Shown here one piece after another: positions 5,232-5,417 of a DNA stretch of 5,990 nt. Position 1 is the first letter of the stretch. Each line of letters starts with the position of its first letter. Source of the stretch: a virus (Duplodnaviria > Heunggongvirae > Uroviricota > Caudoviricetes); the IMG/VR virus record IMGVR_UViG_2529292747_000021, positions 1 through 5,990 of that record, one strand, 5' to 3'. The notes under the pieces were generated by a model. It saw only the letters and a list, made by a program, of their open reading frames with translations. It was not told the origin of the DNA and ran no database searches. The position numbers and the translations under genes are program-made.

Positions 5232-5417
5232 TTAATCTCGGGCGGCGTTTAACTCTTTATTCAGTAAATCAGACTGATACTGATTTGGCTTTGTAATGAT
5301 ACTGTCAAGTTTTGATATATGAAATTCAACATGTTCTGGACAGTTAAAAATGTAATAACCGCCCTTCTCTAAAAAGCCAGAAAGAGCGTTACAGACAGGG
5401 CATGGTTTGTTTGGCAT
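5232..5417 (-). CDS. Small zinc-ribbon-like protein (61 aa; CPVC ... CPEH motif), hypothetical
   Basis: ATG at 5417 (reverse strand) preceded by GGAGG with a 5-nt spacer. Product MPNKPCPVCNALSGFLEKGGYYIFNCPEHVEFHISKLDSIITKPNQYQSDLLNKELNAARD. The upstream GTG and ATG starts in the ORF track are not needed. Convergent with the plus-strand operon. Confidence 0.55.
   Translation of the reverse strand: MPNKPCPVCNALSGFLEKGGYYIFNCPEHVEFHISKLDSIITKPNQYQSDLLNKELNAARD

What the first reader, a model, noticed from the sequence alone, without database searches (positions are those of the whole stretch)
5232..5417. Convergent small zinc-ribbon ORF lying antisense within the leftward operon
A 61-aa ORF with a near-ideal SD (GGAGG, 5-nt spacer) and a CxxC ... 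CPxH arrangement (CPVC at residues 6-9, CPEH at 26-29) sits on the strand opposite to the ydfA-to-dicF transcription unit. If the operon transcript reads through to DicF as in Qin, this gene is expressed against oncoming transcription. That would be a potential antisense regulatory arrangement, or a moron with its own promoter. I cannot assign it to a known family from memory; a YdaE-like zinc-binding protein of Rac is one possibility.
Basis: partly seen in the sequence, partly recalled or inferred. Interest (0 to 1): 0.55.

Follow-up and report, generated by a model that had tools for sequence, protein, structure and literature searches.

The report
Truncated prophage zinc-ribbon gene facing DicF operon
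The small ORF is a real, already annotated prophage gene for a zinc-ribbon protein of unknown function, here cut short by a stop codon, and it sits on the opposite strand in a swappable slot just upstream of the DicF small RNA, where related prophages carry other small genes.

Summary
A 61-codon ORF at 5232..5417 (-) has GGAGG 5 nt before its ATG and carries CPVC (residues 6-9) and CPEH (26-29). It lies antisense to the ydfA-ydfB-...-DicF unit, which is on the + strand here (DicF 5754..5805).

It is a true protein gene. dN/dS is 0.13-0.17 in its frame against 0.43-1.5 in the other five. The four Cys/His positions are invariant down to 41-47% identity. Published strand-specific Ribo-seq in O157 Sakai (ECs1061) shows low-level transcription and ribosome coverage.

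- The 61-aa form is a nonsense-truncated allele of an 80-aa protein. Codon 62 is TAA, and the 18-codon tail is still intact in frame.
- Its convergent partner gene (179 aa when intact) is frameshifted here.
- At least four unrelated small minus-strand genes occupy this slot in related prophages. All share the same ATG, SD and leader, and each travels with its own C-terminal half of the plus-strand gene.

Rac's sieB sits in the equivalent slot. The protein is not YdaE-like. It has no Pfam, NCBIfam, PADLOC or structural relative.

Best reading: a moron-type accessory gene, probably impaired here. Function and promoter remain unresolved. Interest is modest.

The parts
5232..5417 (-). 61-codon ORF. 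It is a truncated allele of an 80-aa zinc-ribbon protein gene (= ECs1061 of Sakai prophage Sp4, EDL933_RS06115, WP_001133047.1, PHROG 10133).
   Evidence: dN/dS is 0.13-0.17 in this frame.
5232..5234 (-). Premature TAA at codon 62. Full-length alleles have Ser at this position.
   Evidence: P0021 differs from the common O157 allele only by L16S, V30G and *62S.
5175..5231 (-). In-frame remnant of the C-terminal tail (GRSGPLKILQRPTIVELD) plus the ancestral stop at 5175-5177. It overlaps the 3' end of the plus-strand gene by 20 nt.
   Evidence: The tail motif L.RP..VELD is conserved in homologues that are 63% identical.
5418..5427 (-). Shine-Dalgarno GGAGG (5427-5423) and the 5-nt spacer ATAAA.
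   Evidence: Identical in all cassette types.
5418..5500 (-). Conserved leader shared by unrelated minus-strand cassette genes. It contains a predicted hairpin (5453-5448 with 5429-5424, six pairs in the fold) that pairs three of the five SD bases and the first spurious ATG.
   Evidence: Alignments A1 and A8. Fold z-score is -4.06 for 5395-5560. The same structure could serve the + strand RNA.
5545..5575 (-). Candidate weak promoter: -35 AGGACT, then TGtTATGCC as an extended -10. It corresponds to the published BPROM prediction 122 bp upstream of the start codon. Unverified.
   Evidence: S4 Table of PMC5597208 and my reading. Not found by the consensus scan. The boxes are not conserved in cassette types B, C or K-12.
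4656..5045 (+). Frameshifted convergent partner gene. The conserved MEFKDL N-terminal domain is followed by an out-of-frame tail (129 aa as annotated).
4919..4925 (+). A7 tract, the site of the 1-nt deletion. The intact 179-aa homologue has A8.
4922..5194 (+). Shifted frame, still open, that encodes the rest of the partner protein. This is the type-A C-terminal domain and includes the orphan ORF 5042..5194.
5754..5805 (+). DicF sRNA.
4359..4644 (+). ydfA (DUF1391, 4359..4514) and ydfB (4516..4644), the first genes of the early-left operon that leads to DicF.

Best explanation
The ORF is a prophage accessory ('moron'-type) gene of a lambdoid Sp4/Qin-like prophage. It encodes a small, roughly neutral protein with an N-terminal four-stranded CCCH zinc ribbon, a C-terminal helix and, in the native 80-aa form, a short conserved tail.

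It occupies a dedicated opposite-strand slot between the ydfA/ydfB/MEFKDL genes and the DicF-DicB module. In Rac, the superinfection-exclusion gene sieB occupies the same slot. The slot supplies a fixed translation start (AATGGAGGATAAAATG) and leader, and different prophages plug unrelated small genes into it.

Inferred mechanism: the gene is transcribed at a low level on its own in the lysogen, against the repressed early-left operon, and is translated from the strong SD. The protein acts by binding another protein (host, phage or its cassette partner) rather than nucleic acid. When the early-left operon is derepressed, oncoming transcription toward DicF would collide with it and form RNA duplexes.

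In this window the gene is a derived nonsense allele lacking the conserved 19-residue tail, and its convergent partner is frameshifted. Its activity is therefore probably reduced or lost.

Shown: gene reality, conservation of the ligands, truncation, cassette architecture and published expression. Inferred: the independent promoter, the protein-binding mode and any lysogen-benefit function.
For: - Protein-level selection: dN/dS is 0.13-0.17 in frame against 0.43-1.5, with 3-8 stops, in the other frames.
- C6, C9, C26 and H29 are invariant in all homologues, including the 41-47% identical P0005.
- The AF2 model built with a 6-sequence alignment has pLDDT 77 and pTM 0.65, with strands 3-5, 12-18, 21-26 and 30-35 and helix 46-61.
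- Weak sub-threshold hits go to TFIIB/Rrn7 zinc ribbons only.
- Accessory distribution: the gene is present in about 400 of 5426 complete E. coli genomes, while the adjacent pre-DicF DNA is in more than 4400. It is absent from 185,579 species-representative genomes.
- Slot architecture: at least 4 cassette types share the ATG, SD and leader.
- sieB of Rac is convergent at the equivalent place.
- Expression in a lysogen under ordinary growth, from strand-specific data in PMC5597208 S2 Table: LB RNA RPKM 12.2, ribosome RPKM 68.2, coverage 0.51; BHI 33.8 / 30.8 / 0.69.
- Genes antisense to lytic genes are a recognised signature of accessory loci (PMC7067206).
- DicF in Qin is processed from the transcript that starts upstream of ydfA (PMC10448788). 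No + strand terminator-like site is predicted between ydfA and DicF here.
- Truncation and partner frameshift.
Against: - No convincing sigma-70 promoter was found upstream on the minus strand.
- The published prediction is computational only, and its boxes are not conserved.
- No TSS row for this gene was found in the EDL933 Cappable-seq tables. Those tables were truncated in storage, so the absence is weak evidence.
- Expression values are low and similar to the neighbouring early-left genes (dicB 80.5/55.4; ydfA 41.9/61.7). Part of the signal could therefore come from a spontaneously induced subpopulation or pervasive transcription.
- The sieB analogy is positional only, with no sequence similarity.
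- The premature stop and the broken partner suggest decay in this prophage.
Confidence: 0.5

Rival explanations
1. The zinc-ribbon protein is the cognate partner (immunity, antitoxin or regulator-like) of the variable C-terminal domain of the convergent MEFKDL protein. The two form a polymorphic two-gene module exchanged as a unit, arranged like pore-forming colicin genes with their oppositely oriented immunity genes. That comparison is from my own knowledge and was not tested.
For: - The minus-strand gene type and the plus-strand C-terminal domain co-vary perfectly over about 80 loci and 4 cassette types: A 179-186 aa with the 80-aa Zn ribbon; B 212 aa with 69 aa; C 112 aa with 64 aa; D 129 aa with about 99 aa.
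- The pairing and the 3' overlap persist in the distant L006-L009 prophage. That prophage has no DicF match in the two loci scanned, L006 and L007. Its plus-strand gene lacks the MEFKDL N-domain, and the Zn ribbon is only 41-47% identical.
- Both genes are disrupted together in the window lineage, while both are intact in every other type-A locus.
Against: - The two genes abut or overlap, so physical linkage alone predicts co-variation.
- Joint inactivation is a single evolutionary event.
- No TA or defence family matched either protein.
Confidence: 0.22
2. In this window the ORF is a functionless remnant: a decaying gene of a cryptic or mosaic prophage whose translation is residual.
For: - The premature TAA removes the tail whose motif (L.RP..VELD) is conserved between homologues that are 63% identical.
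- A near-identical full-length allele exists (P0021).
- The partner gene is frameshifted.
- Expression is low.
Against: - The whole zinc ribbon and helix (residues 1-61) are retained.
- The allele is fixed and essentially invariant (>=99% identity) in 386 complete genomes of O157, O103, O121 and others. The only changes seen are single missense variants that spare the Cys/His positions, with no further stops or frameshifts.
- Ribosome coverage passes the source paper's thresholds for translation in two conditions.
- The low diversity means this says little about selection since the truncation.
Confidence: 0.3
3. The main function is at the RNA or transcription level. Minus-strand transcription and translation from the conserved leader dampen read-through from the early-left promoter into DicF/DicB, by transcriptional interference or RNase III-sensitive duplexes. 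The encoded protein is secondary.
For: - The leader, SD and ATG are conserved in all cassette types while the coding bodies are unrelated.
- The gene is fully antisense to the DicF precursor transcript path.
- The 3' ends of the convergent genes overlap by 20-130 nt.
Against: - Strong purifying selection acts on the protein sequence itself.
- K-12 Qin makes DicF with no such gene and with a degenerate leader.
- Conservation of 5418-5750 is equally explained by the + strand DicF precursor. In K-12 that conserved block starts only about 60 nt further from the ATG.
- Minus-strand transcript levels are low.
Confidence: 0.1

Closest known systems
sieB of the Rac prophage (and sieB of lambda/P22)
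   Same: It occupies the same slot in a related E. coli prophage. It lies on the opposite strand to the early-left operon, downstream of the DUF1391 gene (ydaF, equivalent to ydfA) with overlapping 3' ends, and upstream of an sRNA (KilS, as DicF here) and a cell-division inhibitor (KilR, as DicB here). sieB is a prophage-expressed exclusion gene (PMC10883804 abstract).
   Different: There is no sequence similarity. SieB is 162 aa, whereas this family is 80 aa with a zinc ribbon. No exclusion phenotype is known for this family.
ECs1061 / PHROG 10133 (annotated hypothetical protein of O157 Sakai prophage Sp4)
   Same: It is the same gene. The window allele differs from the common O157 allele by A8V. 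Published Ribo-seq includes it among short annotated genes.
   Different: Nothing differs biologically. The annotations do not record that it is a truncated allele.
YdaE, the zinc-binding protein of Rac
   Same: Both are small Cys-containing proteins of lambdoid prophage early-left regions.
   Different: There is no detectable similarity. The cysteine pattern differs. YdaE is co-directional with the operon, downstream of kilR.
Generic zinc ribbons (TFIIB/Rrn7-type, Pfam PF13453/PF11781)
   Same: Two knuckles, CPxC and CPxH, sit 16-17 residues apart on predicted beta-hairpins.
   Different: The hits are far below gathering thresholds: 12-15 bits against 22-27. The fourth ligand is His. No structural neighbour reaches significance.

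Membership tests
PHROG 10133 (phage protein family, unknown function) | Full-length match to the family profile. | tested here: met
   E = 4.3e-47, 159 bits, residues 1-61 on profile positions 5-65 of 65.
YdaE (Rac zinc-binding protein) | Sequence similarity to YdaE. | tested here: not met
   BLASTP finds no alignment at E<=100.
YdaE (Rac zinc-binding protein) | Same genomic position and orientation: co-directional, downstream of the division inhibitor. | tested here: not met
   ydaE follows kilR on the operon strand. This ORF is on the opposite strand, upstream of DicF/dicB.
Zinc ribbon fold | Two conserved metal-ligand knuckles (CxxC-type) on beta-hairpins. | tested here: met
   C6, C9, C26 and H29 are invariant across all homologues. 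Predicted strands flank both knuckles at pLDDT 77.
Zinc ribbon fold | Match to a curated zinc-ribbon family, or a significant structural neighbour. | tested here: not met
Zinc ribbon fold | Actual zinc binding. | not testable with these tools
   This needs metal analysis of purified protein.
Prophage moron / accessory gene | Present or absent, or replaced, among otherwise homologous prophages. | tested here: met
   About 400 of 5426 genomes carry it, while the flanking pre-DicF DNA is in more than 4400. Other prophages carry unrelated genes or none at the slot.
Prophage moron / accessory gene | Own promoter and terminator, transcribed independently of the surrounding operon. | tested here: inconclusive
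   The opposite-strand orientation is shown. The consensus scan found no promoter. A published BPROM prediction exists. Only a weak 5-bp hairpin at 5184-5169 was found as a terminator candidate.
Prophage moron / accessory gene | Expressed in the lysogen. | tested here: inconclusive
   Not tested by me. Published strand-specific RNA-seq and Ribo-seq in Sakai show low RNA and ribosome coverage in LB and BHI. Early-left genes show similar levels, so a contribution from induced cells cannot be excluded.
SieB superinfection exclusion family | Sequence homology to SieB. | tested here: not met
   The best local alignment covers 8 residues at E = 0.12.
Known anti-phage defence proteins (PADLOC-DB 2.0) | Match to a defence-system profile. 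| tested here: not met
   No hit for the Zn-ribbon protein, the other cassette proteins or three of the four partner proteins. The type-A partner gave one weak hit, Cas10b at E = 0.011.

The most novel reading that the evidence does not exclude
The slot immediately upstream of DicF is a recombination hotspot for polymorphic two-gene modules. Each module combines a variable C-terminal effector domain, fused to a constant MEFKDL N-domain and expressed on induction, with a cognate small convergent gene expressed from a fixed leader in the lysogen. The CCCH zinc-ribbon protein would be one such immunity, sensor or exclusion partner. This would be a new family of prophage-encoded toxin-immunity or anti-phage modules, organised like colicin and its immunity gene.
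Probability: 0.15. Interest if true: 0.65.

Novelty: new member of a known kind. Interest (0 to 1): 0.35.

Why it matters
Prophages of Shiga-toxigenic E. coli carry many small genes of unknown function, and these shape lysogen fitness, phage resistance and virulence regulation. This work gives ECs1061 a defined status and a testable setting.

- ECs1061 is a real, selected, translated gene. In O157, O103 and O121 it is a truncated allele, and its convergent partner is broken.
- A fixed opposite-strand expression slot next to DicF/DicB, with at least four interchangeable cargo genes, sits where Rac keeps sieB. That is a concrete place to look for new exclusion or defence functions.
- The intact 80-aa and 179-aa alleles are the ones to test, not the O157 versions.
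- Anyone studying DicF production in EHEC should know that the precursor transcript there must cross a translated antisense gene that K-12 Qin lacks.

Tried and rejected
- **YdaE-like protein:** rejected. No similarity, and a different position.
- **SieB homologue:** rejected. The similarity is positional only.
- **Longer 85-aa (GTG 5489) and 65-aa (ATG 5429) starts:** rejected. The ATG at 5429 is part of the SD and has no SD of its own. Unrelated cassette genes begin at the same SD-proximal ATG.
- **The 110-aa minus ORF 5419..5751:** judged spurious. It was formerly annotated in EDL933 as RS06110. It lies across the conserved DicF precursor, and in the current RefSeq records I examined (PA2, O103 12009, Sakai, EDL933) the stretch is unannotated.
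- **Exhaustive HMMER over 1.84 billion representatives:** one true distant relative (P0005). The two top hits were long repeat proteins and are artefacts of summed repeats.
- **tblastn against 50,697 deposited phage genomes:** no match.
- **Scan of 185,579 species-representative genomes:** no relative.
- **Single-sequence AF2:** uninformative, pLDDT 54.
- **Sigma-70 promoter scan of 5418-5990, minus strand:** nothing at the tool's threshold.
- **Full-text search for the protein sequence, PHROG id or ECs locus tags:** no paper.
- **EDL933 TSS tables:** no entry for this gene, but the stored files are truncated.

Full report
**1. The observation**

The minus strand carries ATG (5417-5415) ... 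TAA (5234-5232). This encodes 61 aa: MPNKPCPVCNALSGFLEKGGYYIFNCPEHVEFHISKLDSIITKPNQYQSDLLNKELNAARD. The upstream sequence is 5'-AATGGAGGATAAAATG-3', so GGAGG lies at 5427-5423 with a 5-nt spacer. CPVC is at residues 6-9 and CPEH at 26-29.

Rfam places DicF at 5754..5805 on the + strand (76.9 bits against a gathering score of 48). Also on + are:
- ydfA (DUF1391, 4359..4514);
- ydfB (4516..4644);
- a 129-aa gene (4656..5045).

dicB begins one base past the window end. The ORF is therefore antisense to the path from ydfA to DicF. In window coordinates the operon is rightward and the ORF leftward. The rest of the window is a lambdoid immunity and replication region:
- YdaS/Cro-like, YdaT, O-like and DnaC-like genes on the minus strand;
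- a PaaA2-ParE toxin-antitoxin pair on the plus strand.

ORF length alone means little here, because spurious ORFs of 60-200 aa abound.

**2. It is a real gene**

RefSeq annotates it as a hypothetical protein (WP_001133047.1). It is ECs1061 of Sakai prophage Sp4 and EDL933_RS06115. It matches PHROG 10133, a family of unknown function, at E = 4e-47.

The family is tiny:
- 5 clusters among 5.8 billion 90%-identity clusters;
- one true distant relative among 1.84 billion representatives by exhaustive HMMER (P0005, 91 aa; 47% identity by HMMER, 41-43% in the MAFFT alignments); the two higher-scoring hits are long repeat proteins and are artefacts;
- none in deposited phage genomes;
- none in 185,579 species-representative genomes.

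Within E. coli there are three lineages: the window type, an 80-aa allele about 91% identical at the DNA level (L012-L015), and an 80-aa branch 61-63% identical in protein (L010, L011, L016-L021).

Nei-Gojobori dN/dS between these lineages is 0.13-0.17 in the ORF frame. In the other five frames it is 0.43-1.5, and those frames contain 3-8 stops. C6, C9, C26 and H29 are invariant in every member, including P0005.

Published strand-specific RNA-seq and Ribo-seq of strain Sakai (Hücker et al. 2017, PMC5597208, S2 Table) give these values for ECs1061:

| Condition | RNA RPKM | Ribosome RPKM | RCV (ribosome/RNA) | Coverage |
|---|---|---|---|---|
| LB | 12.2 | 68.2 | 5.58 | 0.51 |
| BHI | 33.8 | 30.8 | 1.04 | 0.69 |
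| Cold/salt stress | 9.6 | 0.7 | 0.07 | 0.10 |

The gene is single-copy in these genomes, so multi-mapping is not an issue. The levels are low and comparable to dicB and ydfA in the same table.

**3. The 61-aa form is truncated**

Reading on from the TAA gives GRSGPLKILQRPTIVELD and then TAA at 5175-5177. This is collinear with the 80-aa alleles, which have Ser at codon 62. P0021 (80 aa) differs from the common O157 allele only by L16S, V30G and Ser62 in place of the stop. The nonsense allele is therefore derived.

The lost tail carries a motif (L.RP..VELD) that is conserved between branches 63% identical. Every O157, O103, Sakai and EDL933 copy examined has the stop and an undamaged tail. The window allele additionally has A8V, giving CPVC instead of CPAC.

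**4. The convergent partner is also broken**

In loci with the intact 80-aa gene, the plus-strand gene ending opposite it is 179-186 aa, and the 3' ends overlap by 20-44 nt. In the window an A8 tract has become A7 (4919-4925). The annotated product becomes 129 aa with an out-of-frame tail. The correct frame remains open from 4922 to 5194 and encodes the missing domain.

**5. The slot is a cassette site**

The pre-DicF DNA (about 5476-5752) is present at about 90% identity in more than 4400 of 5426 complete E. coli genomes, including K-12 Qin. The ORF body is present in only about 400.

I surveyed 80 IMG/VR loci that encode the conserved MEFKDL N-domain, plus RefSeq loci. They show at least four module types:

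| Type | Plus-strand protein | Minus-strand gene |
|---|---|---|
| A | 179-186 aa | 80-aa zinc ribbon |
| B | 212 aa | 69 aa (MPNKKRNPLIEKQ...) |
| C | 112 aa | 64 aa (MSEQELKLGACY...) |
| D | 129 aa | about 99 aa (MVSKLNQTRW...) |

The minus-strand gene type and the C-terminal half of the plus-strand protein co-vary without exception. All types share the same SD, ATG and upstream leader, and the sequences diverge immediately after the start codon (alignments A1 and A8). K-12 Qin has ydfC, no minus-strand gene and a degenerate leader.

The distant relative P0005 lies in a non-E. coli enterobacterial prophage. No DicF match was found in the two loci scanned, L006 and L007. It is again convergent to, and overlaps by 119 nt, a 135-aa gene homologous to the type-A C-terminal domain.

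In Rac the equivalent slot, between the DUF1391 gene ydaF and KilS-kilR on the opposite strand with a 3' overlap, holds sieB.

**6. What the protein looks like**

With a six-sequence alignment, AlphaFold2 gives pLDDT 77 and pTM 0.65. The model has four strands (3-5, 12-18, 21-26, 30-35) bracketing the two knuckles, a helix at 46-61 and a poorly predicted tail. The single-sequence model was uninformative.

**7. Transcription**

My consensus scan found no sigma-70 promoter upstream on the minus strand and no + strand terminator between ydfA and DicF. The Sakai paper's BPROM run predicts a promoter 122 bp upstream of the start (LDF 4.52) and no terminator. I read this as AGGACT ... TGtTATGCC around 5575-5545. 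These boxes are weak and are not conserved in the other cassette types.

In the EDL933 Cappable-seq tables (PMC10469882) I found no TSS row for this gene, but the stored files are truncated. They do list minus-strand starts further upstream, at window-equivalent positions of about 6170 and 6198, outside the window, in 4 and 2 of 8 conditions respectively.

The leader folds strongly (z = -4.06) and includes a hairpin that pairs part of the SD. The complementary + strand is the DicF precursor, which could equally account for the structure. [quoted passage not shown] The same route here must cross this gene in antisense.

**8. Interpretation**

The best-supported reading is a moron-type accessory gene in a dedicated opposite-strand slot, present here as a probably impaired truncated allele. 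Antisense placement relative to lytic genes is a recognised hallmark of accessory loci (PMC7067206).

Three rivals remain:
- **Cognate partner.** It is the partner of the variable plus-strand domain. Co-variation, deep conservation of the pairing and joint inactivation support this, but all three are confounded by physical linkage.
- **Dead remnant.** In this window it no longer functions.
- **RNA-level role.** Its role is transcriptional or antisense. Strong protein-level selection disfavours this.

Function remains unknown. The specific exclusion or defence idea rests only on the sieB position analogy.

**9. Novelty and score**

The gene is already annotated and appears in a published Ribo-seq control set, so it is not a new feature. 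New here are the truncation, the broken partner, the tiny orphan family with a CCCH ribbon, and the shared-leader cassette slot next to DicF. I class it as a new member of a known kind (prophage accessory small gene) and give it modest interest.

Noticed in passing
window 4919-4925 (+): The homopolymer A7 tract is the only lesion splitting the 179-aa MEFKDL-family gene into 4656..5045 and the orphan ORF 5042..5194. Intact homologues have A8. It could be simple decay or a slippage-prone, phase-variable site.
   Followed up: partly
window 5819-5968 (+): A sub-threshold match to Rfam STnc100 (33.6 bits against a gathering score of 47, E = 1.3e-4) lies in the DicF-dicB spacer. Its 3' hairpin CCUGGAGGCACCAGG is well matched.
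   Followed up: no
window 5753/5754 (+): EDL933 Cappable-seq (PMC10469882, supplementary file 7) lists a primary 5' end at the position equivalent to the DicF 5' end in 1 of 8 conditions. DicF is thought to arise only by RNase E processing.
   Followed up: no
window ~4793, 4651, 4594 (-): The same dataset lists minus-strand transcription starts antisense to the start of the MEFKDL gene: one inside its N-terminal part and two just upstream of its start codon. The one equivalent to 4793 appears in all 8 conditions. This is a separate antisense transcript downstream of the zinc-ribbon ORF.
   Followed up: no
window 3598-4069 (+), with 3143/3206-3577 upstream: A PaaA2 antitoxin and ParE toxin pair (Pfam E = 1e-19 and 2e-16) sits between the putative repressor gene and ydfA. 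It resembles the paaR2-paaA2-parE2 three-component modules of O157 prophages (that comparison is from my own knowledge). The upstream 123-144 aa protein has no Pfam hit.
   Followed up: partly
window 1-4187 versus 4188-5990: The O157 and O103 prophages match the window at 99-100% only from about 4165-4188 rightward. The immunity and replication part of the window differs from Sp4, so the window comes from a mosaic relative, not from Sp4 itself.
   Followed up: partly
L042, L045, L050 about 2760-3077 (-); L099 3299-3817 (-): Other cargo occupies the same slot. One is a gene of about 99 aa that overlaps the plus-strand gene by about 130 nt. In L099, a 172-aa minus-strand ORF with CxxC...CxxC motifs lies further toward DicF. 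The slot holds more diversity than the four types described.
   Followed up: no
window 5419-5751 (-): This 110-aa ORF was annotated in an older EDL933 RefSeq record (RS06110). It lies across the conserved DicF precursor and is probably not a gene.
   Followed up: partly
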